A DNA stretch of 64,000 nucleotides from an uncultured Gammaproteobacteria bacterium (lineage in GTDB: Bacteria; Pseudomonadota; Gammaproteobacteria; CAWCPV01): assembly GCA_963797555.1 (NCBI GenBank), contig CAWCPV010000003.1, forward strand, positions 96,001 through 160,000. Reading direction: 5' to 3'. Shown here one piece after another: positions 39,430 through 48,474 of this stretch (positions are counted from its first letter, which is position 1; the number at the start of each line of letters is the position of its first letter). A program made the position numbers and the translations under genes. Below the pieces are notes generated by a model that made no database searches, was not told the origin of the DNA, and saw nothing but the letters and a program-made list of their open reading frames with translations.

Positions 39430-41502
39430 TCACATCTTCAGGTCATCCAGAAACTCGGATGCCGGCTCCACGCCGGTGACGAGCAGGTCATCGCGGGCTC
39501 GGGTGCAGGCGACGTACAGCAGATGTCGCTCGGTGTCGTAGACCTCTTCCAGATCGGCATCATCGGCCACGGTCTCGATACGCGCCTGTAGCGGAATGAC
39601 CTCGTCGTCACAGGCCATCACCGCCACCGCTTTGAACTCCAGTCCTTTGACCAGATGCATGGTGCTGACCGAAAGCTGACCACTGACCGTTTCCACGTGC
39701 TCGTCCAGCACCTTGGACGGCAATCCGGCCTGGGCCGCCGCCGCGCGGGCGCGGTCCAGCTCCGCGTCCGATCGAACGAATACTCCGATCTCATGAGGTG
39801 CCATCCCCTCGTGACCGCGCTCTGCCAGCCAGGCGCCGACCGCGCTGATCTCCTCCTCTTGGCTGTCGAAGGTGCGGATTTGAGGGGCCGGCCCGTTGAA
39901 CAGCGACACCGTGCCGCGCCGTTCCTCGGCATTGCCGTCCACATCGGATAGCTCCGGCCCCAGCAGGCGGTCGGCCTGCATCCGGATCTGATGCGAGGTG
40001 CGGTAGTTGACGTGCAGGGTGCGCGAGCGCCCGCGTATATCCACGCCGAGCGACTTCCACGAAAAGGGTTGCTGGAAGATGCGCTGGCCGAGATCGCCCG
40101 CGAAGAACAGGCCGTTCGTTCGATCCGCCCCGAGCGCGGCGAGGAAACGCAACTCCGCGACGCCGACATCCTGCGCTTCATCTACCACGACGTGCTCGAA
40201 GGGCGGATGTTCGCGGTCGGCCAACCGGGCGGCCAGGCGGGTGAACAGGCCCGAGTGAGTGATGATGCCTTCAGCCTTCAGGCGTGCACGCACGGCATCG
40301 AAGACGGACCAGACTGCTGCCCGCTGCGGCTCCGGCAGGCGCGTTTTCCTGCCCAAGCGCTTGACGTTGCGATAGGCCTCCCAGCTCTCCACCTGCCACG
40401 CATCCACCAGTTCCTCCCACTCGGCCACTAAGAAATTGAGGTTGAACCTCTGACCGCCGACCTCTGCCGCGGCCTCCGCCAGTCGCTGCCGAATCATGTC
40501 GCGGGAGGCGATGCGCGGGCGGCCGAAGTGGCGCTCGTAGAGCCGCTCACCGATGGCGTTCGTGGCATGCACCTCCAGGCGCTCGGCCAGGCGCGGCTCG
40601 TTGCTGATCAAGCGCCTGAGTTTGGTGCGCAGCGCATTCGCCAGAGCGTCGGAGAAGGTGGTCAGCAGCACGCGGGCTTCGGGATGGCTGCGAGCGAGAA
40701 ACACCGCCCGGTGCAGAGCGACGATGGTCTTGCCCGTACCCGCCGAGCCGGAGACGCGCGCCGGGCCGCTGTAGTCGCGCTCCACCCACTGGCGCTGCGC
40801 GGGGTGGAGAAAGACCATCCACTTCTCCCACGGAAACGCCAGCGCGCGCTCCAGCTCCTCGATGTCGCTCATTACCCGGAAGCGGCGCTGAGCGTCCGGG
40901 TGACTGTAGGGGTCGGCGCCCGCGGCAACGGGTTGGCTGACCTGCGGCCTGCCGCCCGTGGCCAACTCCAGCAGAGCCTCGGCCGCCTCGGCGGGCAAAT
41001 GGTCGGCGATTGCCAGCAGGCTGTCTTCGTCGGCCTGGCGTACGTCGCCCAGCCACTCTGCCGGCACACCGTAGCTCAGCAGCTCATCGTCGGTGCGATG
41101 CGCGAACAGAAGCGGCTCGGCAGGGGCAGGTCGCGGAACCTCGATGTACTTCGGTACGGCGACCTCCTCCACCCGCTCGCGGATCTCCACCCACTGTGCC
41201 GCCCCGGTCTTGAAGTGGGTTTCCAGCTTGCGGCGGTTCGCCCACTCGTACGCCTCGTCGTGGTGATCGACGTAGCACAGCAGCAGGCTGTGCTCGGTCC
41301 TGTGCACGATGAGCCGAATATCACTGCTCACCCGCACCGACCAGAAGTTCTTGTCCCTGGCCTTGTCCAGCTTGTGGAAGCTCAGGCCCGGACCCGCGGG
41401 GTTCAGTTGCAGGTCGAAGGCCGTGGTCTTGACCGCCTTCTGCTCCTCGCCGGTGAGCTTGGCGAGGCTGTCGGTAAAGGTGTCGGAGATGCGGAAATTC
41501 AT
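39430..41502 (-). CDS. UvrD-like SF1 helicase with N-terminal RelE-like domain
   Basis: N-terminal WSVRVSSDIRLIVH..YVDHHDEAY. Helicase motifs GSAGTGKT, VDEAQD, GDLGQRI, NYRT, KGLEF, LYVACTRAR. Confidence 0.85.
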   Translation of the reverse strand: MNFRISDTFTDSLAKLTGEEQKAVKTTAFDLQLNPAGPGLSFHKLDKARDKNFWSVRVSSDIRLIVHRTEHSLLLCYVDHHDEAYEWANRRKLETHFKTGAAQWVEIRERVEEVAVPKYIEVPRPAPAEPLLFAHRTDDELLSYGVPAEWLGDVRQADEDSLLAIADHLPAEAAEALLELATGGRPQVSQPVAAGADPYSHPDAQRRFRVMSDIEELERALAFPWEKWMVFLHPAQRQWVERDYSGPARVSGSAGTGKTIVALHRAVFLARSHPEARVLLTTFSDALANALRTKLRRLISNEPRLAERLEVHATNAIGERLYERHFGRPRIASRDMIRQRLAEAAAEVGGQRFNLNFLVAEWEELVDAWQVESWEAYRNVKRLGRKTRLPEPQRAAVWSVFDAVRARLKAEGIITHSGLFTRLAARLADREHPPFEHVVVDEAQDVGVAELRFLAALGADRTNGLFFAGDLGQRIFQQPFSWKSLGVDIRGRSRTLHVNYRTSHQIRMQADRLLGPELSDVDGNAEERRGTVSLFNGPAPQIRTFDSQEEEISAVGAWLAERGHEGMAPHEIGVFVRSDAELDRARAAAAQAGLPSKVLDEHVETVSGQLSVSTMHLVKGLEFKAVAVMACDDEVIPLQARIETVADDADLEEVYDTERHLLYVACTRARDDLLVTGVEPASEFLDDLKM

Positions 41503-41506
41503 CGGG

Positions 41507-41938
41507 CTACCGGCGCATGTACGAAAAGCGCGGAGCCATTCTCTGTGCCTGATCCATCCAGAAGTGCTTCAGCTCACTGTCCGGAAGATCGCGCGAGTCG
41601 TGCCAGCCTATGATGTTGGCGTCCTGAGGGTACGGTTTGCCGTCCGCGTCAAACCCCAGACCGATTGCAAACACCGCTTCGGCAGGGCCGACGCCGCGGC
41701 CAATTGCCGGCCTTGGTGCGTGTTTGTCAAAGTACGTCGAGCAGATTTCCCAAACCTGTGCCTCGGTCAGGTGCTGCGACCGGCAAACCGATGTCTCCAG
41801 TCTTCCGTTAGGCATCTTGTCTCGGCGCCGGGGCATCAGGCGTGAATAGTGAATCGAGTTGGTTCTCTTGACCACGTGTTCGGGCCGAAACACAAAGGTG
41901 CTTAACGATTCATCAGGCTGCACGTCTGACGGCAGCAA
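41507..41938 (-). CDS. Hypothetical protein, possible ADP-ribosyltransferase-fold toxin
   Basis: DESLSTF..ETSVCR..VWEI..IGRG..ANIIGW pattern. TTG start at 41938 overlaps the end of the upstream gene (start inferred). Confidence 0.5.
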   Translation of the reverse strand: MLPSDVQPDESLSTFVFRPEHVVKRTNSIHYSRLMPRRRDKMPNGRLETSVCRSQHLTEAQVWEICSTYFDKHAPRPAIGRGVGPAEAVFAIGLGFDADGKPYPQDANIIGWHDSRDLPDSELKHFWMDQAQRMAPRFSYMRR

Positions 41939-42461
41939 GCGCGTAGAGCCGGCCAACGTATCGGACCACATCGTCAAGAGACTCTTCAAGAGCGCTGCGA
42001 CTCGTCGCATCAATTGACTGCCAGGCATGAATCCCTCCCTCGCTCCCAAACTGACCGGCAAAATTGATCTTTCCGTGTTCGCCAACGCTCACAGAAAACA
42101 TCCGAGTGGTGTCGACCGACCAACTTATGCAGATCTCCCCGTCGAATTCGGGTATCAGATCCGGCGCTGGTGTGCCTTTCGGGAGCAAAGCGAACAAAGT
42201 CGCGGCGATTCTTGCCGCAAGATTTATCGTGTGGTCCGTGACAGGAACCGCTCCACCACTGTCCCAGTCGGCATTGCGGCACTCATTGCCTATGCCACCC
42301 AACGCTGCCTCAATAGTCGGGAGCCAATCCGATGCGCTTCTACTCAGGTAGTTTCGTTCCTTTTCCCATGAGCGCTGAATCGCGCGGCTACCGTCGCTGA
42401 CGGGCTCATAGTCGTCGTTATCGATTAGATGCAAACCCTGCATCGCGATCGCAGTGCTCAT
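41913..42461 (-). CDS. Hypothetical protein (WDxxGA...PxLxPxxDGEIxxxW family), putative antitoxin
   Basis: ADWDSGGAVPV..LPKGTPAPDLIPEFDGEICISW. ATGA coupling with the upstream gene. Confidence 0.6.
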   Translation of the reverse strand: MSTAIAMQGLHLIDNDDYEPVSDGSRAIQRSWEKERNYLSRSASDWLPTIEAALGGIGNECRNADWDSGGAVPVTDHTINLAARIAATLFALLPKGTPAPDLIPEFDGEICISWSVDTTRMFSVSVGEHGKINFAGQFGSEGGIHAWQSIDATSRSALEESLDDVVRYVGRLYALAAVRRAA

Positions 42462-43207
42462 TCGTACAACTCGGCTGACGCCTCAGTGATGCTGCTGAAG
42501 AAGGTACGATTTTTCAGTTCCCGCAGGCGTTCAAGAATTTTCCACAGCCGTCCGTCCGTTGAAACCAAATCAGTCACCATGAATGCATCAACATCCAGAA
42601 TTACCGGCGCCGGCCCCGTCGGTGGAGTCGTCTCGAGCGCCAACGTTAAATTCACACGGGCGGTGCTTTCGACTTCGACCAACTGGAATCGCTGAAAAAA
42701 CGATGCCACAGCCTGTGGAGCTTCGTCTGGAACATCCACCAGCTTGCGAAGATAAGTCTGGTACGAGCCCCCCTGCCGCAAGGGGAGTTGAAGATTGTTG
42801 ATGAAACGCGTGGCGACCCGAGTCACACGCACCGGCCCGAGTCGCTCCGCGTAGACCGCCCAGACGCGCCTTGTCTCTTCGACCAATCTGCTCCACTCCT
42901 CGTACGGCGGCAGTCGACTCAGCGTGAACCCCGAAAGCCGGCACTGGGCGACGTACTTTTCATCCAACGAATGTAACCGCAACCCCACCTGCGCGGACTC
43001 GGCGGTGCTCTCCGGCTGCTGCCCGTCGGATGTCAGCTTAAAACCGAAAAAGCCCTGCGAAATCGGATTCTTCAGGTAGTAGCCGAAATCCGGCGTGCCA
43101 AATGCTTCCTTCAGTCCAGCAAAGGTGAGGTCGTGGCGTGGGACCACGTGAATATCGATCAGCGCTTCCGTGATCGGTGCATTCGGCAGATGTCGCTGCC
43201 TAGCCAT
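42458..43207 (-). CDS. TIGR04255-family protein
   Basis: LPNAPITEALIDI, LSRLPPYEEW, RVATRFINNL, VILDVDAF, LRELKNRTFFSSIT. Confidence 0.78.
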   Translation of the reverse strand: MARQRHLPNAPITEALIDIHVVPRHDLTFAGLKEAFGTPDFGYYLKNPISQGFFGFKLTSDGQQPESTAESAQVGLRLHSLDEKYVAQCRLSGFTLSRLPPYEEWSRLVEETRRVWAVYAERLGPVRVTRVATRFINNLQLPLRQGGSYQTYLRKLVDVPDEAPQAVASFFQRFQLVEVESTARVNLTLALETTPPTGPAPVILDVDAFMVTDLVSTDGRLWKILERLRELKNRTFFSSITEASAELYE

Positions 43208-43308
43208 GACTTGACCGGCTGGGCCGGCTCCAGCGTCTGAGATTGCGACACCAATTTACCGCAGTCCGCCTCGGTGTCCGGTGAGGAACTGGGGAGAGAT
43301 CCACTACG

Positions 43309-46300
43309 TTAAACACGAAACACCTTCATCACCTCATCCCCCAGGTGATTGATGACCTTCACCGCGATCCGCCCCGACTTCGGCTTGTCGAAGGGCCGGG
43401 AAGTGTCGCTGTTGAGCGTGGCCCAGGCGTCTTCGTTGATCTCGGCTTTGAGGGTGGTCTTGAGCGCCTTGTAGGGGTCGTTGGCGCCGAGGAAGTAGGC
43501 GTGGCGGACGAAGAAGGCTTCCATGTTGTAGTCGGTGTCGATGAACCAGCAGGCGATGCCTTCGGCACCGTCGCTGCGGACTTCGCCGGTGTTGGGGTGG
43601 AAGACGTCCACGCCGTGGACGGTGACCTGTGACTTGTGGTCTGTGGTCAGTGAAAGCGGGAAATCTGCGGCGCTCAGGCTCTGGAGCGCAGCGAGCGTTT
43701 GAGTCCGTTGAGCATTCGACCAACGTCCGCCGCCTGAGCCTGTAACAGGGCAATTTTTTCCTGTGTGACCATCCCGAGTCTTTCCGCCAGTATCAAAAAC
43801 GTCTCTGTCTCCGCCAGAGAGCCGCTGGCGATCCCCAGGAACTGGAGAAACTCCCCTGTTCCCGACCGTTCCGCTCCCTCCGCGATATTCGCTGCTATCG
43901 ATACTGCCGCCCGCCTGATCTGGCTGGTCAGACCGTATTTCTCTTCCGGCGGGAACTGAGCAGAGACGCGATAGACCCTCTCGGCCAGCTCGATTGATTT
44001 CTTCCAAACTTCCAAGTCCTGATAGCTCTTTAACGTACTCATAATTCGCAACCATCCCGCCGTTTCTAGCCACTAACCACTGCCCACTGGTCACCGTAAT
44101 GTCCGGCTCGCCGAAGATGACGAAGAGGTTGCCCTTGCCGGTGTTCTTGAGGTCGTCGGCCATGTGCAGGTCGGCGTTCATGCGCGCCTTGAGCACGGGG
44201 ATGCGGCCGAGGTTCTTGAAGTCCGAGGAATGCGCGTCGTAGTTGAAGGCGCAGGCGATGAGCACGTCGAAGCCGGCATCGCCGGCCTCGCGGGCAGCGG
44301 CGACCAGATCGGGGCGCGAGACGGTGCCGAACTCGGGGCCGATGAAGATTCCAGCACGGTATCCCGAGCGGGAATCGGTGGCCTGTGACCCGTGGTCGGT
44401 GCTGGAATCAGTGGCTAGTGACTTGTGGTCGGTGGCTTGTCTTTCTCCGCTAACCACTGGCCACTGGTCACTGACCACTGTCCCAGCGGTGGTCTGTGGC
44501 CCGTGGTCAGTGGCTTGTATTGGTTTTTCCCTAATCACCGACCACTGGTCACTGGCCACTGTCCCAACGGCGCAGACCAGCTCGCCCGGCCAGGGGGTGA
44601 GCGAGGTGAAGCTGATCTTGTCGTCCTTGTGCGCTTGCTGTACGCCCGCGGTCTTGAGATTCTCCAGGATGATCTGCACAAAGTCGCGCTCCTGGCCGTA
44701 ACCCTCCGTGGGCTCGGCCGCGGTGTCGATCAGCTCGTCGTTCTCGTCCACCGCCAGCACGCGGTGCGGCGACAGGCTCTCGACGGTGAACGGCCCGGCG
44801 ACGCGGACGATTCTCTTGTCCTCATACGGCTTGTCGTAGAGGTACTCGAACCCGGCCTTGGCGGCGATGGAGGCGTCGATCTCTTTCTGTCGCGCAATCC
44901 TCGCGCTCCAGAAAGCAGTGATCAGTGACTGAGTGGCTTGTGGCCAGTTAGTGGGACGTTCGCGCGGGATTTCCCATTCTTCCAGGGTTCTTTTCTGACC
45001 ACCGGCCACGGACAACTGATCACGGAGCGATGCGAGCGTTAGCTCGTAACGCTCCCAGATGACGTTGATCTCGGCGTTGTTGGCAATGGATTTTAGGGTG
45101 ATGTGCGGCACGCGCTCGTAGACGAAGCCCTGTCTCAGTGACTCGTGGCCAGTGACTTGCGGTTTGCTTTTCAGGTCACTAGCCACTGACCACCGACCAC
45201 TGATTTCCGCTTCCTTGATCTGCCCCTCGCGGCTGTCGGCGAGCAGGTAGTAGGGGTAGCGCGCGCCCATGATGCGCGCACGGGCCAGGGCGAGGGCGAC
45301 GCGGGAGGTGTCGATGGTGATCCAGCGGCGGCCCCATTGCTCGGCGACGTAGGCGGTGGTGCCGGAGCCGCACGTGGGGTCGAGGACGAGGTCGCCGGGG
45401 TCGGTGGCCATAAGCAGGCACCGTTGGACGACCTTTTCGGATGTTTCCACAACGTATCGCTTCTCCGAGGCGAAGCCCGCAATCCCGGTGTCGCTCCATA
45501 CGTTGTCCTCAGGGAATGCCGCGAAATCATCGAAGTAGCGAACGTAGTAGAGCCCCTTGCCGGTAGAGCTCAGCCGCCCGGCTAGCCGTAGGCGGGACAT
45601 TCCAAGCTCATTTGTCTTCCAGCGCACCTTCTCAGACGGTCGTAGCGTTTGGCCCTCAAACTGTACTGGGAACCAAGATGCAGCACCCTCGCCCTTATCG
45701 CGCCCGACGCTCTGGCTCGTAAGATTATCGATTCGAAACACACGAGCCCCGCTGGGAAGTAGTGACGTCCCCGCCAGTTCCTCTGGCGAAATGCTTCGTT
45801 CAGACAAGTCTGACAGACGAACGCGCTTGTACGCGCTGCCTCCGATGCCCCCAATCTGCTTCAGCATGAGCGGCTGGTGATATTTCAGCCGGTCCCGCTG
45901 CCTTGCATAGAACAGAAGGAACGTCATAGGTGCCGGCAAGGTACTCCGATGTAGCACTAGCCGTCTTCGCAAAAATTATTTGAGACACAAAACTTTCAGA
46001 ACCAAACACTTCGTCCAGCAAACTGCGCAGCACGTGTGAGTTCTCTTCGCCAATCTGCACGAATATCGATCCGGAATCCGCCAACAAATCCCTTGCCACT
46101 GTCAGCCGATCCCGCAGATAGGTCAGGTACGAGTGAATCCCATCCCGCCAGGTATCCCGAAACGCCTTGACCTGCTCCGGCTCGCGCGTGATGTGGTCGG
46201 GGTTGCCGTCCTTCACGTCGCGGCTGGTGGTGGACCACTGGAAGTTGGAGTTGAATTTGATGCCGTAGGGCGGATCGATATAGATGCACTGCACCTTGCC

Positions 46301-46813
46301 GCGCAGCCCTTCGCGCTCGGCCAAACTGGCCATCACTTGCAGGCTGTCGCCGAGGATCATGCGGTTGGACCAGTTCTGGTCGTGGCGGTAGAACTCGGTC
46401 CTGTCCACGCCCTCGGGGATGCCGTTGAAGTCCGCGAACAAGTCGAGCTGGCGCTCGACAGTGGCTAGTGGCTCGTGGTCAGTGGCCTGTTTTCCACTAG
46501 CCACTGCCCACTGCCCACTGGCCACTGATTGACGACGCAAGTCGTCAATCAAGACCTTCGGTTGGATCTTCTCCTGGATGTAGAGCGGCGGGGCCTGAAC
46601 GACGAGGTCGGACCAGTCCTGCTCGTCCTTGCCGCGCCAGACCAGTTGCGGGTCCAGGTCCCGGTTGCGGCGCTCGTAGGCGACGCGGATGGGGTCTTGC
46701 TCCTCCTTCCGCATCACCGACTGGTATTCGGCGGTGGGGATGTTCTTGCGCGTGGCTTCGTCGTGCTTGAGGGTCGCGACGGTCTTGCTGGTCGATGTCT
46801 GCCGCTTCGCCAT
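43309..46813 (-). CDS. Type III-like (Mod, beta-class) adenine DNA methyltransferase; one frameshift near 45922; five in-frame hairpin insertions
   Basis: NRMILGDSL and YIDPPYG (motif IV) precede a variable TRD, then DPTCGSGTT (motif I). C-terminal IAVKVINHLGDEVMKV. Built from ORFs 45800-46813 and 43309-45972. Confidence 0.9.
43619..44097. mobile_element. Heptamer-repeat hairpin element enclosing the four-helix-bundle gene (site 5)
   Basis: Left arm ACG-GTGACCT-GTGACTT-GTGGTCT-GTGGTCA-GTGAAAGCGGGA. Right arm TCCCGCCGTTTC-TAGCCAC-TAACCAC-TGCCCAC-TGGTCAC-CGT. The outer 9 bp are a perfect IR. Mobility is inferred, not shown. Confidence 0.7.
43674..44042 (-). CDS. Four-helix-bundle protein (23S rRNA IVP / bAvd-like), nested inside mod in another frame
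   Basis: SYQDLEVWKKS..FPPEEKYGLTSQIRRAAVSIAANIAEG..FLGIASGSLAETET..RMLNGL is the canonical family signature. Confidence 0.92.
   Translation of the reverse strand: MSTLKSYQDLEVWKKSIELAERVYRVSAQFPPEEKYGLTSQIRRAAVSIAANIAEGAERSGTGEFLQFLGIASGSLAETETFLILAERLGMVTQEKIALLQAQAADVGRMLNGLKRSLRSRA
44376..44562. repeat. Heptamer hairpin site 4: two tandem hairpins plus a half arm
   Basis: GTGRYYN x3, then GTGRYYN x4 / NRRYCAC x4 twice. Both hairpins end in CACTGTCCCA. Confidence 0.88.
44916..45024. repeat. Heptamer hairpin site 3 (degenerate arms, about 40-nt loop)
   Basis: GTGATCA-GTGACTGA-GTGGCTT-GTGGCCA ... TGACCAC-CGGCCAC-GGACAAC-TGATCAC. Confidence 0.75.
45136..45202. repeat. Heptamer hairpin site 2
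   Basis: CA-GTGACTC-GTGGCCA-GTGACTT ... AGGTCAC-TAGCCAC-TGACCAC-CGACCAC-TG. Confidence 0.85.
46459..46527. repeat. Heptamer hairpin site 1
   Basis: CA-GTGGCTA-GTGGCTC-GTGGTCA-GTGGCCT-GTTTT-CCAC-TAGCCAC-TGCCCAC-TGCCCAC-TGGCCAC-TG. Confidence 0.9.
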
Positions 46814-46865
46814 GTCGCTCCGGGTTCTCCCGATGTCGGGTTACGGCCTGACGGCCTAGCCCGAC

Positions 46866-47125
46866 CTACTTCTTCTCCCGATAGACTTCACCGCGGCGGC
46901 CTACCTTGACGGTCCCCACCAGCAGTTCAGCATCCGAGACGCTGTAAAGAACGCGGTAGTTGCCCTGCCGCACACGGTAACGCTCCTGCGCGGAGAGCTG
47001 TTCGCTTCCGAGCGGACGCGGATCGTCGCGCAAGCTTTCGATACACGCGAGGATGCGCCGCGCATCCGCGCGGGGAATGCCGCGCAGGTCCTTGGCCACC
47101 GATGGCTTGACCCGCAGATCATAGC
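46866..47125 (-). pseudogene. RelE/ParE toxin lacking its start codon
   Basis: RYDLRVKPSVAKDLRGIP..DDPRPLG..YRVRQGNYRVLYSV..VKVGRRGEVYR. Abuts the res fragment directly. Confidence 0.75.
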
Positions 47126-47241
47126 GTACGGCGTTCGATGATCCGCTGGGTCGGCTGGCCCTGCTCGTCGAGCTCCCAGTAACGAGCCGGATACTCGTAA
47201 GGAGAGTTGAGGATGGGCTGTTCGAAGAACTTGTTGTCCAT
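47119..47241 (-). pseudogene. First 40 or so codons of a type III-like restriction (Res) subunit
   Basis: MDNKFFEQPILNSPYEYPARYWELDEQGQPTQRIIERR then a stop. This is the typical N-terminus of the Res partners of this Mod family. Confidence 0.75.
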
Positions 47242-47458
47242 GTGTGGTATTTCTCTGATGGGCCGTACTGTCCCCAGCCCAAAGAGAAGGAGGTCACCCT
47301 TAGCCTTCCGTTCTTCTGTTCCGCGAGCGTACGAGATGGATCTCGGCAAGACCGTCTTAGGCCGCGTCGCCGGCTGCACAGCATCGAGTATGCTGGTAAT
47401 TACGCTCCCGCAAATCGGGCTTCGGCCCTTCTACCACCTCGCGCTTCACCCTTCCCCG

Positions 47459-47880
47459 TCACTCTTTGAACGGGTTCTCGATGATCAGTCCGTCGATCCG
47501 CTGGCCATGCTGCAGGTCTTCGCTGTAGAGCCGGGTACATCCGGCGTCGAGGGCGGCGGCGATGATCAGGGCGTCGTAGAAACCGTAGCGGTAGCGCGCC
47601 TGGATATCGAGGGCGCGGTGATAAAGCCCCTGGCTGGGCCATGATGCGCCACAACGGCACGAGCACTTGGTCCATGAAACGCCGCGCGTCTTCCGGGGTT
47701 GCCGGCGTTTCGAGCTTGCGGGTGATGACATGAGGGTTTCCTGAATCACCTGGAAGCTGATACCGGCTGTACCGGTTTCCAGCGCCGAGTAGATCAGTTG
47801 TTCTGAGGTCTGGCGTTGCGGGGGTCGGTCTCGTCGAACAGGTAGAGGAAGACGTTGGAGTCGATGAACTCACCGCTCAT
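47459..47880 (-). CDS. PIN-domain toxin (frameshifted)
   Basis: FIDSNVFLY, SFQVIQE, FYDALIIAAAL, LYSEDLQHG. Confidence 0.8.
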
Positions 47881-48094
47881 TCATCTCGTCCCGAGTAAAC
47901 TTGCGCCCACCCGTGCGTACATAGTCCCGCAGGCGCTCCACCACGGCCATCGCCTCATCGGCCCGCTGCTTGCGCTGGCCGTAATCGGCGAGCCAGCGCC
48001 GGAACTGCTCGTTGAGCGTGGTATGCTCGGCGCGCGCGCGCTTGCGGGCCGCCTCGATGAGCTTCTCGTCGGCGCTCAGCGTGATGTTTTTCAT
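47870..48094 (-). CDS. Ribbon-helix-helix-type antitoxin
   Basis: MKNITLSADEKLIEAARKRA..TLNEQFRRWL..FTRDEMNER. Overlaps the PIN start. Confidence 0.8.
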   Translation of the reverse strand: MKNITLSADEKLIEAARKRARAEHTTLNEQFRRWLADYGQRKQRADEAMAVVERLRDYVRTGGRKFTRDEMNER

Positions 48095-48474
48095 GGCTCG
48101 GACCTCTCGGTGAATTCGAACACGAGCGCAGTGTACACGATTGCCGCGTGCACTCAGCGCGGGGTGCCTCGTTCTCGACCCAGGCGGCGATCATGGGGGT
48201 GCGACTCAGCCTCGATCCGATAGGCTTCGGCGATCTCAGCGCAAGCCCAGCCGCCGTGATAGCGCAGGTTGCTCACGCCCGGCACCCAGTAGGTCTCCAT
48301 AGTGGCCTGCTTCTGTCGCTTCTCCTCGTATCCAGAGAAATCGAGCCATGAATTGCGGGTGACGGCTGCTTTGGGAACGCGGGGCAGGCGGCATCACGCC
48401 ACATCATGCGGCCGCGCGGGATCGGGCGGCACCCCCAGAGGGCGACGACCGCTGAGCGCAGGCCCCCTTCGTCT

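What the first reader, a model, noticed from the sequence alone, without database searches (positions are those of the whole stretch)
43619..44097. Complete gene nested in a stem-loop within another gene, both frames open on the same strand
Seen: about 160 codons separate GEPDI from VHGVDVF in Mod, where homologues I recall have roughly a dozen residues. This stretch has no stop, and a different frame encodes an intact 122-aa four-helix-bundle protein. The stem has a perfect outer 9-bp IR, and an inner GCGGGA/TCCCGC pairing covers the likely RBS region of the nested gene. The IR-to-IR length of 479 nt is not a multiple of 3, and the outer arms encode plausible Mod strands (ITVT, QVTV). Inference: selection kept read-through, so precise full excision is unlikely. 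The hairpin may control translation of the nested gene.
Basis: partly seen in the sequence, partly recalled or inferred. Interest (0 to 1): 0.85.

Follow-up and report, generated by a model that had tools for sequence, protein, structure and literature searches.

The report
Gene nested inside a methylase gene
A small four-helix-bundle gene, held in a hairpin, sits inside a DNA methylase gene and is read in a second frame, while the methylase frame runs straight through it, and relatives in many bacteria keep the same arrangement.

Summary
Between the Mod motifs GEPDI and VHGVDVF lie 477 nt (159 codons). In 47 of 51 insert-free homologous loci the gap is 39 nt, a beta-hairpin turn.

The insert is a PF05635 (23S rRNA intervening-sequence / Avd-like) gene in the +1 frame, bracketed by inverted heptamer-repeat arms.

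It is not a local accident. 28 of 80 related loci from several phyla carry an insert at this codon position. 28 of 29 inserts (window included) are a multiple of 3 in length, and 27 of 29 have no stop in the Mod frame. Five are in-frame deletion remnants.

Selection switches frame along the insert:
- Arms: constrained in the Mod frame (pN/pS about 0.3).
- Core: constrained in the nested frame (dN/dS about 0.19; the Mod frame there is about 2).

None of 29 free-standing PF05635 genes is stop-free in that alternate frame. The stem shows compensatory changes.

A second, unrelated methyltransferase family (Eco57I/MmeI-like) has the same arrangement: 19 of 19 inserts are in frame, and the nested gene is +1 in 17 of 17.

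In this genome the system looks decayed. Mod has a frameshift elsewhere and only fragments of the restriction gene remain.

What the hairpin does (RNase III site, translational coupling, mobility) is untested.

The parts
43309..45972 (-). Mod methyltransferase, C-terminal reading frame. Real coding starts at about 45922. It holds the end of the N6_N4_Mtase domain, the variable region, and the C-terminal domain that carries the insert.
   Evidence: ORF list; PF01555 7.8e-14; 62-69% identity to nine full-length homologues of 560-1251 aa.
45800..46813 (-). Mod methyltransferase, N-terminal reading frame, including the IDPPYG motif. Real coding ends at about 45923.
   Evidence: aligns with the N-termini of the homologues.
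45919..45925 (-). Frame change that splits Mod in this assembly, between ...GTYD in one frame and FLLFYA... in the other.
   Evidence: Three-frame translation and DNA. The homologues are continuous here. No metagenome contig covers this place, so it is not verified by reads.
43621..44097 (-). The whole insert between the GEPDI and VHGVDVF codons (477 nt). It is translated through in the Mod frame. Net gain over the empty site is 438 nt.
   Evidence: The empty site in 51 loci reads GEPDI-DILDAEDGQIQVKV-NGVDVF.
43674..44042 (-). Nested four-helix-bundle gene: ATG at 44042-44040, stop at 43676-43674, 122 aa, +1 frame relative to Mod.
   Evidence: PF05635 4.1e-40, TIGR02436 3.9e-38, NF008911 146.8 bits against a cut-off of 137. 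PDB 2gsc at E 1.7e-25. ORF open in 16 of 16 alleles of the 477-nt class; 14 have ATG at the start position. dN/dS 0.19.
44043..44097 (-). 5' arm in mRNA sense. Heptamer array CAGTGNN, encoding TVTSGQWLVARNGGMVAN in the Mod frame. It includes the SD-like GGCGGGA at 44055-44061 (GGGAGGA in most homologues).
   Evidence: Mod-frame pN/pS 0.32; the other frames are 1.37 and 1.24.
43621..43673 (-). 3' arm in mRNA sense. Heptamer array NNCACTG, encoding ..ADFPLSLTTDHKSQVT in the Mod frame.
   Evidence: Mod-frame pN/pS 0.33; the other frames are 1.38 and 1.70.
44071..44095 (-). 5' half of the conserved outer stem (helices at 44089-44095 and 44071-44080). It pairs with 43621-43627 and 43636-43645.
   Evidence: RNAalifold consensus. 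17 pairs, 92.3% of cells paired, 5 pairs with changes on both sides, covariation 0.251 against 0.192 (0 of 500 shuffles reach it); slid controls pair in 22-61% of cells.
43621..43645 (-). 3' half of the conserved outer stem.
44368..44570 (-). Cluster of short heptamer-repeat hairpins without a gene, read in frame as ..SDQWSV..ATDH..SDQWPVVSG..ATDH..
   Evidence: The same position is variable among homologues.
44918..45023 (-). Heptamer-repeat hairpin or remnant, in frame in Mod.
45131..45207 (-). Heptamer-repeat hairpin, in frame in Mod (GRWSVASDLKSKPQVTGH).
46451..46530 (-). Heptamer-repeat hairpin, in frame in the N-terminal part of Mod (SVASGQWAVASGKQATDHEPLAT).
47128..47226 (-). Remnant (first ~33 residues) of the partner BPTD_3080-family restriction endonuclease.
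   Evidence: NF046055 matches profile positions 1-33 of 970 only. Intact 933-975-aa copies lie upstream of Mod in L031 and L018.
48205..48354 (-). Second remnant of the restriction endonuclease, about residues 903-954.
   Evidence: tblastn with the L031 protein, 50% identity over 52 aa. No other piece in the window or next to it in the genome.

Best explanation
**What it is.** The insert is a cassette of the same kind as the gene-bearing intervening sequences of 23S rRNA. It consists of a PF05635 four-helix-bundle gene with its own start and Shine-Dalgarno-like motif, bracketed by two inverted arrays of 7-nt repeats that form a long stem. Here the cassette lies inside a protein-coding gene. 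It replaces the turn of a beta-hairpin in the C-terminal domain of the Mod methyltransferase of a BPTD_3080-type restriction-modification system.

**How the host gene survives.** The cassette is not removed. Ribosomes translate through it in the Mod frame.
- The arms encode conserved peptides (SGQWLV..NGRM.AN and DFPLSLTT.H..QVT).
- The stretch that overlaps the nested gene becomes a loop whose sequence is dictated by the other frame and is only kept free of stops.
- The four-helix-bundle protein is made from the same strand in the +1 frame.

**Shown.** Selection switches frame along the insert. Stops are avoided in the Mod frame. The stem keeps its pairing. The empty and occupied sites are defined. 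The arrangement recurs in two methyltransferase families.

**Inferred.**
- The nested protein starts at its own ATG, about 13 nt after GGGAGG.
- The cassette persists as a hitch-hiker. Losing the methylase of a live restriction system is harmful, so only frame-preserving states survive.
- The stem serves the cassette, not Mod. Possible roles are RNase III processing as in rRNA, coupling to Mod translation, or mobility.

**In this genome.** The restriction gene is gone and Mod carries a frame change. The methylase is probably no longer functional here, while the nested gene is still intact.
For: **Site and spread**
- Among 80 related loci, 51 are empty (39 or 51 nt) and 28 carry an insert at the same codon position. 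One more (L022) is cut by its contig end but holds the gene.
- The hosts are labelled Chloroflexota, Pseudomonadota, Thermodesulfobacteriota, Planctomycetota, Verrucomicrobiota, Latescibacterota, Cyanobacteriota and Myxococcota.
- All 9 protein homologues that I aligned read through the insert. The best 120 of the protein search cover at least 85% of the query region.

**Frame kept open**
- Window included, 28 of 29 insert lengths are multiples of 3 and 27 of 29 have no Mod-frame stop. The exceptions are L012 (one stop) and L021 (470 nt).
- Five inserts (L016, L023, L027, L028, L032) have lost most of the nested gene by in-frame deletions and still read through.

**Null tests**
- 0 of 29 free-standing PF05635 genes of the same phylum are stop-free in that frame; they have 1-19 stops. 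The 8 with GC3 of 0.62-0.69 have 1-6 stops.
- Synonymous shuffles within each gene give P(0 stops) of 0.00-0.33.

**Selection by frame, 16 alleles**
- Nested frame: pN 0.182, pS 0.572, median dN/dS 0.19.
- Mod frame over the same stretch: median dN/dS 1.99.
- Variation is concentrated at nested codon position 3.
- Arms: Mod-frame pN/pS 0.32 and 0.33, other frames 1.24-1.70.
- The same pattern holds in the second insert class of 5 alleles: 0.29, 0.28 and 0.36 in the expected frames.

**Stem**
- 92.3% of cells paired, 5 of 17 pairs with changes on both sides, and 0 of 500 shuffles reach the covariation score.

**Second host family**
- The read-through peptide finds 52 representative proteins. 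Two of them are Eco57I/MmeI-like methyltransferases.
- 19 of 76 loci of that family have an insert. All 19 are in frame with 0 host-frame stops. The nested gene is +1 in 17 of 17. Shuffles there give P(0) of 0.004-0.40.

**Structure and family**
- In the AlphaFold2 model the insert leaves and re-enters through paired strands E82-92 and E242-253. Residues 134-211 have pLDDT of about 25.
- Family membership.
Against: - There are no expression data of any kind. No RNA run holds the sequence, so translation of either frame is inferred from selection only.
- The Mod tree is poorly resolved, and the insert state needs 9 changes on 66 rows. A single origin, repeated insertion at one site, and allele recombination cannot be told apart.
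- The alleles are related, so the per-gene probabilities cannot simply be multiplied.
- AlphaFold2 gives high confidence (blocks of about 90) to Mod-frame residues 94-134 and 212-240. These partly overlap the nested gene, so part of the read-through peptide may be structured, not just a tolerated loop.
- The flanking ORFs of the free-standing PF05635 genes sampled from the same phylum matched mostly sugar-nucleotide and other housekeeping enzyme families (16 of 67 flanking ORFs match GDP-mannose dehydratase/epimerase families). The link to methyltransferases is therefore not general.
- In this genome Mod is frame-shifted and the restriction gene is lost, so present-day selection on the read-through here is doubtful.
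- The spacing of about 13 nt between GGGAGG and the ATG is long. The window's own motif is GGCGGGA.
Confidence: 0.75

Rival explanations
1. The stem is a translational switch. It hides the ribosome-binding site of the nested gene, so the four-helix-bundle protein is made only when ribosomes translating Mod melt the hairpin. This is compatible with the main explanation and concerns only the role of the stem.
For: - GGGAGG (alignment columns 52-57) can pair with YUUYCC (columns 450-455) in 93.8% of cells.
- The window has a perfect GCGGGA/TCCCGC.
- The start codon lies in a small local hairpin of the consensus fold.
- The outer stem is conserved.
Against: - Pairing is no better than the shuffled columns (94.4%; 416 of 500 shuffles are as high), and there is no covariation.
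- Both partners are constrained for other reasons: the SD function, and the Mod-frame residues DFP.
- RNAalifold did not predict this helix.
Confidence: 0.3
2. The stem is an RNase III site, as in 23S rRNA intervening sequences. Cleavage releases a separate mRNA for the nested gene and cuts the Mod mRNA, so the cassette lowers Mod output. Full-length Mod would come from transcripts that escape cleavage.
For: - The protein family and the overall architecture (gene inside a long stem) match the rRNA element, where excision by RNase III was shown (abstract of PMC4990558).
- The stem is conserved with compensatory changes.
- Most free-standing copies sit tightly between co-oriented genes, so they depend on host transcripts.
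Against: - There are no RNA data.
- The stem is interrupted by an 8+8-nt internal loop.
- If cleavage were efficient, selection for an open Mod frame and for the Mod-frame arm peptides would be hard to explain.
Confidence: 0.3
3. The nested protein is a working part of the defence system, for example a regulator or partner of the methyltransferase, and not a hitch-hiker. That would explain why it is kept inside methyltransferase genes.
For: - It is nested in two unrelated methyltransferase families.
- A second copy in this genome lies between what I read by eye as pglZ and brxL of a BREX system.
- The family was reported as frequent near immune genes (passage read in PMC10053308).
- It is under purifying selection.
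Against: - 51 of 80 close Mod alleles lack it, and none of the 37 plasmid records with this Mod covers 80% or more of the insert-bearing query.
- Remnant alleles lost it while keeping Mod.
- Neighbours of the 29 free-standing copies are mostly not defence genes.
- The state flips between sister alleles: L015 and L074 pair at SH-aLRT 99.
Confidence: 0.15
4. It is a local accident: a recent insertion into a dead gene, or an assembly artefact, and both frames are open by chance in GC-rich DNA.
For: - Mod is frame-shifted and the restriction gene is lost in this genome.
- The genome is 65% G+C.
- For the window alone, a synonymous shuffle leaves the frame open in 7.6% of trials.
Against: - The same insert lies at the same codon in 28 other assemblies from several phyla, with frame-specific selection.
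- Low-depth metagenome contigs from three of the four runs laid cover parts of the insert at 0-4 differences.
- 0 of 29 free-standing genes are open in that frame.
Confidence: 0.03
5. The selected product is the Mod-frame peptide, a true extra domain of Mod, and the nested ORF is incidental.
For: AlphaFold2 gives confident helices for Mod-frame residues 106-134 and 215-226 of the model. The arm peptides are conserved.
Against: - Over the nested ORF the Mod frame has dN/dS of about 2 and the nested frame 0.19.
- Variation peaks at nested codon position 3.
- The nested ORF scores far above the PF05635 cut-off.
Confidence: 0.04

Closest known systems
Gene-bearing intervening sequences (IVS) of 23S rRNA, e.g. 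the 428-nt element with the S23p ORF described in PMC4990558 (abstract and outline read)
   Same: Same protein family (PF05635). Same layout of a small ORF inside a long stem formed by inverted flanks. It is embedded in a host transcript, replaces the tip of a hairpin, and has a patchy, horizontally spread distribution.
   Different: The host is a protein-coding gene, not rRNA. The element is not removed but translated through in a second frame. Its arms also encode conserved host-frame peptides. Its length is kept a multiple of 3. Excision by RNase III is shown for the rRNA element and untested here.
Rickettsia palindromic elements and other MITE-like repeats inserted in frame in protein-coding genes (recalled; named in the listing for review PMC10969869, which I did not read)
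   Same: Palindromic DNA inserted in frame in ORFs, tolerated as extra surface peptide. The gene-free heptamer hairpins elsewhere in this Mod look like this.
   Different: The element here carries a complete, selected gene in another frame. In this genome the repeats are not genome-wide: 5 of the 6 arrays found lie in this one gene.
Same-strand nested or overprinted genes in bacteria and viruses (e.g. the GndA small ORF inside gnd, PMC11230408; the virus overlap review PMC8227390; listings and abstract starts only)
   Same: Two proteins are read from one strand in two frames, one wholly inside the other.
   Different: In those cases the nested frame is the novelty created within an old gene. 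Here the nested gene is an old, widespread family that was imported, and the host frame across it is the secondary reading. The overlap is long (122 codons) and recurs in two host families.
Avd, the accessory protein of diversity-generating retroelements
   Same: Distant homology: bAvd Pfam E 6.7e-08, NF033474 E 1.9e-07. Homology between the families is stated in PMC10053308 (passage read).
   Different: The scores are below both curated cut-offs (33.4 against 40 bits; 31.3 against 80 bits). I saw no long reverse-transcriptase-sized ORF next to the gene in the ORF lists, but I ran no reverse-transcriptase search.
Short tandemly repeated heptamers (STRR) of cyanobacteria (recalled, not searched)
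   Same: 7-nt repeat units in arrays. One Chloroflexota genome holds about 119 CACTGNN-type arrays dispersed genome-wide.
   Different: Here the arrays come as inverted pairs around a gene or as hairpins inside one gene family. In 4 of the 5 genomes checked, most of the listed arrays lie at the Mod locus.

Membership tests
PF05635 / TIGR02436 four-helix-bundle (23S rRNA intervening-sequence protein) family | Profile match above the curated cut-off over the full domain | tested here: met
   PF05635 136.7 bits (cut-off 33.8), profile positions 1-106 of 106. TIGR02436 130 bits (cut-off 24). NF008911 146.8 bits (cut-off 137).
PF05635 / TIGR02436 four-helix-bundle family | Sequence relative with a solved structure of this family | tested here: met
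   2gsc (XCC0516) E 1.7e-25 over residues 5-121; 2rld E 1e-07. I did not fold the nested protein itself.
23S rRNA intervening sequence (IVS) element | Lies in a helix of the 23S rRNA gene | tested here: not met
   It lies inside the Mod coding sequence. Rfam finds no rRNA in 42500-47500.
23S rRNA intervening sequence (IVS) element | ORF of the S23p family enclosed by a long stem of inverted flanks | tested here: met
23S rRNA intervening sequence (IVS) element | Excised from the transcript by RNase III | not testable with these tools
   No RNA run holds the sequence.
Diversity-generating retroelement Avd | Match above the curated cut-off of the Avd models | tested here: not met
   NF033474 31.3 bits against 80; PF22296 33.4 bits against 40.
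Mod subunit of a type III-like restriction-modification system (partner of the BPTD_3080-family endonuclease) | N6/N4 DNA methylase domain | tested here: met
   PF01555 in both halves (profile 1-87 in the N part, 141-217 in the C part); IDPPYG is seen in the N part.
Mod subunit of a type III-like restriction-modification system | One uninterrupted reading frame | tested here: not met
   Frame change near 45919-45925; not checked by reads.
Mod subunit of a type III-like restriction-modification system | Intact partner restriction gene beside it | tested here: not met
   Only about 33 and 52 residues remain in the window. It is intact in L031 and present in L018.
Genome-wide MITE / palindromic repeat family | Many dispersed copies in the host genome | tested here: not met
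   6 arrays in 5.35 Mb, 5 of them in this Mod gene; a Markov control on contig C3 gave 0. It is met in one other genome (G403, 119 arrays against 23 for the control).
Same-strand nested (overlapping) gene pair | Both frames show signs of being translated | tested here: met
   By selection only. Nested frame dN/dS 0.19. Mod frame: arms at pN/pS 0.32-0.33 and stop avoidance. No protein data.
Intein or self-splicing intron | Conserved splicing motifs or a known ribozyme, with the insert removed from the product | tested here: inconclusive
   No Pfam intein or homing-endonuclease hit in the 887-aa ORF and no Rfam intron. Frame-specific selection on the arms argues that the insert stays in the product. 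Removal itself is not testable here.

The most novel reading that the evidence does not exclude
PF05635 cassettes with inverted heptamer arms are a so-far undescribed kind of mobile gene cassette. One lineage has specialised to live inside coding sequences of defence methyltransferases. It always sits with the host frame one base upstream of its own, with arms that double as a protein stalk.

The cassette, or its Avd-like nucleic-acid-binding protein, also seeds the gene-free heptamer hairpins in the same gene. Such hairpins occur elsewhere in Mod in 9 of 17 cassette-bearing alleles against 1 of 51 empty ones, and almost never in the flanking DNA.

Because losing the methylase of a live restriction system is harmful, the cassette uses the addiction logic of the system as its own insurance.
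Probability: 0.25. Interest if true: 0.9.

Novelty: new variant of a known kind. Interest (0 to 1): 0.8.

Why it matters
- Long, conserved same-strand gene overlaps are rare in bacteria and are usually doubted. This one has clean comparative support: frame-switching selection, stop avoidance against two nulls, in-frame decay products, and an independent second host family.
- Annotation pipelines call only one of the two genes, so both are systematically mis-described.
- It ties the old puzzle of gene-bearing rRNA intervening sequences to protein-coding hosts. It shows that the family's inverted heptamer arms are a common feature of these genes.
- It gives a testable system for three questions: how a selfish cassette can live inside an essential-when-paired gene, what a 146-residue forced loop does to a DNA methyltransferase, and what PF05635 proteins do.
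- A practical point: heptamer arrays beside these genes may be mistaken for other repeat systems.

Tried and rejected
- **RNA evidence.** The look-up of sequencing runs listed no RNA holder, and no run holds more than 0.22 of the words.
- **Reads.** Four metagenome runs were laid. None covers 45478-45961, so the frame change could not be checked. Most related alleles in those runs skip the insert: joints run 43616 to 44092-44099 with 37-40 letters between, the size of the empty site. A few low-depth contigs carry parts of the insert.
- **SD/anti-SD pairing.** No covariation.
- **Known RNA families.** Only sub-threshold microRNA look-alikes on the gene-free hairpins, 35.9 bits against a gathering score of 93.3. 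I take these as chance.
- **Fold of the interrupted Mod domain.** Foldseek against the PDB gave no match at E 0.001 or better. The model itself is only moderate (mean pLDDT 60.8).
- **Plasmids.** 37 records hold this Mod. None covers 80% or more of the query, so I take none to have the insert.
- **A general defence context for free-standing PF05635 genes.** Not seen.
- **Single origin.** The tree does not decide.
- **Other copies of the nested gene within about 6 kb in the 80 loci.** None.
- **Literature.** Searches found no paper describing a PF05635 gene nested in a methyltransferase gene. Subscription journals are mostly outside that library, and supplements were closed and not seen.
- **Not tried.** Complex prediction, the ESM Atlas, folding the nested protein, and a reverse-transcriptase search.
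- **By eye only.** My reading of RelE-like and PIN-like genes at 46866-47749, and of pglZ/brxL around the second copy, rests on recalled motifs. NCBIfam gave no hit for 46866-47384.

Full report
**1. What is in the window**

The finding lies on the minus strand. A large DNA methyltransferase gene (Mod) runs from 46813 down to 43309. Its N part, 45800..46813, holds PF01555 profile positions 1-87 and the IDPPYG motif. Its C part, 43309..45972, holds PF01555 positions 141-217.

The two parts are in different frames. The change lies between ...GTYD and FLLFYA..., near 45919-45925, whereas homologues are continuous there.

Inside the C part, 477 nt separate the codons for GEPDI (ending at 44098) and VHGVDVF (starting at 43620). 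The Mod frame has no stop there.

In the +1 frame lies an ORF of 122 aa from the ATG at 44042 (125 aa from the TTG at 44051), ending at 43674. It matches PF05635 at 136.7 bits (cut-off 33.8), TIGR02436, and NF008911 above its cut-off. It also matches the solved protein 2gsc at E 1.7e-25.

The region folds somewhat better than shuffles, with a z-score of -2.85.

The arms are arrays of 7-nt repeats: CAGTGNN on the 5' side of the mRNA and NNCACTG on the 3' side. Five more short hairpins of the same repeats lie elsewhere in Mod, all in frame.

In the 5.35-Mb genome I found only six such arrays, and five of them are in this gene. A Markov control on contig C3 gave none.

**2. The empty site and the spread of the insert**

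A scan of species-representative genomes with the Mod C-terminus gave 457 relatives, of which 80 loci were kept. This ranking favours insert-bearing loci, because the query contained the insert.

| GEPDI-to-VHGVDVF distance | Rows |
|---|---|
| 39 nt (empty) | 47 loci |
| 51 nt (empty) | 4 loci |
| 477 nt | 15 loci plus the window |
| 450 nt | 5 loci |
| 471, 627, 470, 201, 219, 216 nt | 1 locus each |
| 294 nt | 2 loci |
| flank missing (L022) | 1 locus |

The empty site reads GEPDI-DILDAEDGQIQVKV-NGVDVF, which is two strands and a turn. The insert replaces the turn, for a net gain of 438 nt.

Window included, 28 of 29 inserts are multiples of 3 in length and 27 of 29 have no Mod-frame stop. 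L012 has one stop, and L021 is 470 nt long.

There are two classes of nested gene:
- Class A (the 477-nt inserts) is 61-87% identical to the window's protein.
- Class B (450, 471 and 627 nt) is 50-56% identical.

Five inserts (L016, L023, L027, L028, L032) have lost most of the nested gene by deletions that keep the Mod frame. In L026 the nested ORF has a stop while the Mod frame is open.

At the protein level, the best 120 of the database hits cover at least 85% of the query region. All nine that I aligned carry the read-through insert.

Thirty-seven plasmid records hold this Mod. None covers 80% or more of the insert-bearing query, so I take none to have the insert.

Metagenome contigs show the same polymorphism. 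There are many alleles with the 37-40-nt empty site and a few with the insert.

**3. Which frame is under selection**

The 16 class-A alleles align without gaps. The nested ORF is open in all 16. It starts with ATG in 14, has TTG at that position in one and ATA in one.

| Stretch | Frame | Result |
|---|---|---|
| Nested ORF | nested | pN 0.182, pS 0.572, median dN/dS 0.19 |
| Nested ORF | Mod | pN 0.313, pS 0.182, median dN/dS 1.99 |
| Nested ORF | third | median dN/dS 1.36 |
| 5' arm | Mod | pN/pS 0.32 |
| 3' arm | Mod | pN/pS 0.33 |
| Arms | other two | pN/pS 1.24-1.70 |

Column entropy over the nested ORF is 0.53, 0.36 and 1.04 at nested codon positions 1, 2 and 3.

The arm peptides are SGQWLV..NGRM.AN and DFPLSLTT.H..QVT.

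The five class-B alleles give the same switch: 0.29 in the 5' arm (Mod frame), 0.28 in the core (nested frame), and 0.36 in the 3' arm (Mod frame).

So translation in the Mod frame enters and leaves the insert. The core is shaped by the nested protein.

**4. Is an open Mod frame expected anyway?**

No, by either of two nulls.

The first null is natural. Of 29 PF05635 genes elsewhere in genomes of the same phylum, none is stop-free in the corresponding frame. They have 1-19 stops, and the eight with GC3 of 0.62-0.69 have 1-6.

The second null is a shuffle. Permuting synonymous codons within each nested gene leaves the Mod frame open in 0.0-32.8% of trials per gene, and in 7.6% for the window. 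Fifteen of 16 real genes are open.

The alleles are related, so these figures cannot be multiplied. Synonymous divergence is high, however (pS 0.57).

**5. The stem**

RNAalifold on the 16 alleles predicts an outer stem of 7 + 10 pairs. Counted on its own, it gives the following:
- 92.3% of cells pair, against 89.0% for shuffles (0 of 500 as high).
- 5 pairs change on both sides, in 19 cells against 10.2 expected (1 of 500).
- The covariation score is 0.251 against 0.192 (0 of 500).
- Slid partners pair in 22-61% of cells.

The tool warns that related sequences can beat shuffles without any structure, so I rate this as moderate support.

The proposed pairing of the ribosome-binding site has conserved potential but no support beyond sequence conservation.

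**6. The cassette elsewhere**

- At least 11 of 28 free-standing PF05635 genes that could be scored have clear inverted arms made of lineage-specific 7-nt repeats, such as GTAGGCA/TGCCTAC.
- Most lie tightly between co-oriented genes.
- Their neighbours are mainly sugar-nucleotide and other housekeeping enzymes, not defence genes.
- The second copy in this genome (contig C3, 514843-515181, outside the window) lies between two genes that I read by eye as pglZ and brxL. It is flanked by GTCGTCA-type arms.
- In 4 of 5 other genomes with an insert-bearing Mod, most of the CACTGNN arrays listed lie at the Mod locus. One Chloroflexota genome has about 119 dispersed arrays, against 23 for the control pattern.
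- Within the loci, such arrays occur elsewhere in Mod in 9 of 17 class-A alleles, 1 of 7 class-B, 0 of 5 remnants and 1 of 51 empty alleles. They almost never occur in flanking DNA. This count is not corrected for relatedness, and my pattern favours the class-A repeat unit.

**7. A second host family**

I searched the 159-residue read-through peptide against 1.84 billion representative proteins. It found 52 at E 0.001 or better and 25 at 1e-10 or better.

Of ten that I scanned:
- two are Eco57I/MmeI-like methyltransferases with the peptide near their N-terminus;
- one has DUF559;
- one has PF01555;
- six have no family.

Their sequences show the same arm peptides.

A metagenome scan with part of one of them gave 80 loci, 76 with both flanks. 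Nineteen of those have an insert of more than 150 nt. All 19 are multiples of 3 with no host-frame stop. Seventeen have a PF05635 relative (44-62% identical), always in the +1 frame. Two (L127, L139) have no recognisable copy of the gene, and L115 carries a shortened one.

Synonymous shuffles there give P(0) of 0.004-0.40 for 13 distinct genes. Two of those have a stop in the nested frame, while the host frame stays open.

**8. Context in this genome**

In relatives, a BPTD_3080-family restriction endonuclease of about 970 aa lies upstream of Mod, and a UvrD-like helicase lies downstream.

In the window only two fragments of the endonuclease remain, at 47128-47226 and 48205-48354. Small genes lie between them. 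The helicase (39430..41502) and a TIGR04255 protein (42458..43207) are present.

With the frame change in Mod, the system looks decayed here, while the nested gene is intact.

**9. History**

On a tree of 66 Mod sequences built from four conserved segments with the insert left out, the state empty/occupied needs 9 changes, and well-supported branches force at least 2. L015 (class B) and L074 (empty) are sisters at SH-aLRT 99.

Fifteen rows lacked a segment and were left out.

The tree is shallow and Mod is very conserved. One origin with allele recombination and repeated insertion at one site therefore both remain open.

**10. Structure**

I made an AlphaFold2 model of Mod residues 539-887 with 75 aligned sequences. 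Its mean pLDDT is 60.8.
- The insert sits between strands E82-92 and E242-253.
- Model residues 134-211 have pLDDT of about 25.
- The two ends of the insert are confidently helical.

This fits a stalk plus a loop, but the alignment signal there is partly imposed by the nested gene. No solved fold matched.

**11. Reading**

The descriptive claim is well supported: a conserved, translated-through cassette with a selected nested gene. How the nested gene is expressed, what the stem does, how the cassette moves and what the protein does are inferences.

I found no description of this arrangement in the searchable literature. The closest known thing is the gene-bearing rRNA intervening sequence (PMC4990558; abstract and outline read).

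Noticed in passing
own genome contig C3:514843-515181 (minus strand; outside the window): A second PF05635 gene, 50% identical to the nested one, lies in the gap between two long genes that I read by eye as pglZ and brxL of a BREX system. It is flanked by inverted GTCGTCA/TGACGAC heptamer arrays. A 38-residue fragment of a third copy lies at C3:528804-528917.
   Followed up: partly
window 46866-48354 (minus strand): Between the two remnants of the restriction gene and Mod lie small ORFs that look by eye like a RelE/ParE-type toxin (46866-47384) and a PIN-domain toxin with its antitoxin (47459-47749, 47870-48094). NCBIfam gave no hit for the first; the others were not scanned.
   Followed up: no
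window 45919-45925: A one-base frame change splits Mod in this assembly. No public run that I could lay covers it.
   Followed up: partly
window 39430-43207 (minus strand): A TIGR04255-family protein, two ORFs without family hits, and a UvrD-like helicase follow Mod. A UvrD-like helicase also follows Mod in L031, so it may belong to the system.
   Followed up: partly
G403 (genome of locus L020, labelled Chloroflexota): About 119 CACTGNN-type heptamer arrays are dispersed over the chromosome, against 23 for the control pattern. The other four genomes checked have 16-22 each, and most of those listed lie at the Mod locus. This may mark a lineage in which these repeats are at home.
   Followed up: partly
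loci L086, L087, L090, L094, L102: Free-standing PF05635 genes are flanked by perfect inverted arrays of up to about six GTAGGCA / TGCCTAC units. Such arrays could be mistaken for other repeat systems. A figure legend in PMC10910872 lists '23S rRNA IVP' among CRISPR-associated proteins; whether that is the reason is my speculation.
   Followed up: no
P0098 (record named Thioflavicoccus mobilis 8321), alignment A1 columns about 800-935: The gene-free hairpin region of Mod is expanded to about four tandem GDQWPV...ATGH units in this homologue, so these hairpins can multiply in place.
   Followed up: no
L019 (labelled Pseudanabaena), insert of 627 nt: The class-B insert carries an extra tandem repeat, read as GQGLVDSKGVNS x3 in the Mod frame, after the nested stop. 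It is still in frame.
   Followed up: no
P0151 and P0162: A more distant Mod-like C-terminal domain (GQPD...QGFDYY) carries a read-through insert at what looks like the equivalent hairpin. P0162 also has an N-terminal DUF559 domain. P0165, which has no Pfam hit, carries one at another kind of site.
   Followed up: partly
window 44401-44561 (plus strand): Sub-threshold Rfam microRNA-precursor matches fall on the gene-free heptamer hairpins (best 35.9 bits against a gathering score of 93.3). I take them as chance likeness between hairpins.
   Followed up: yes
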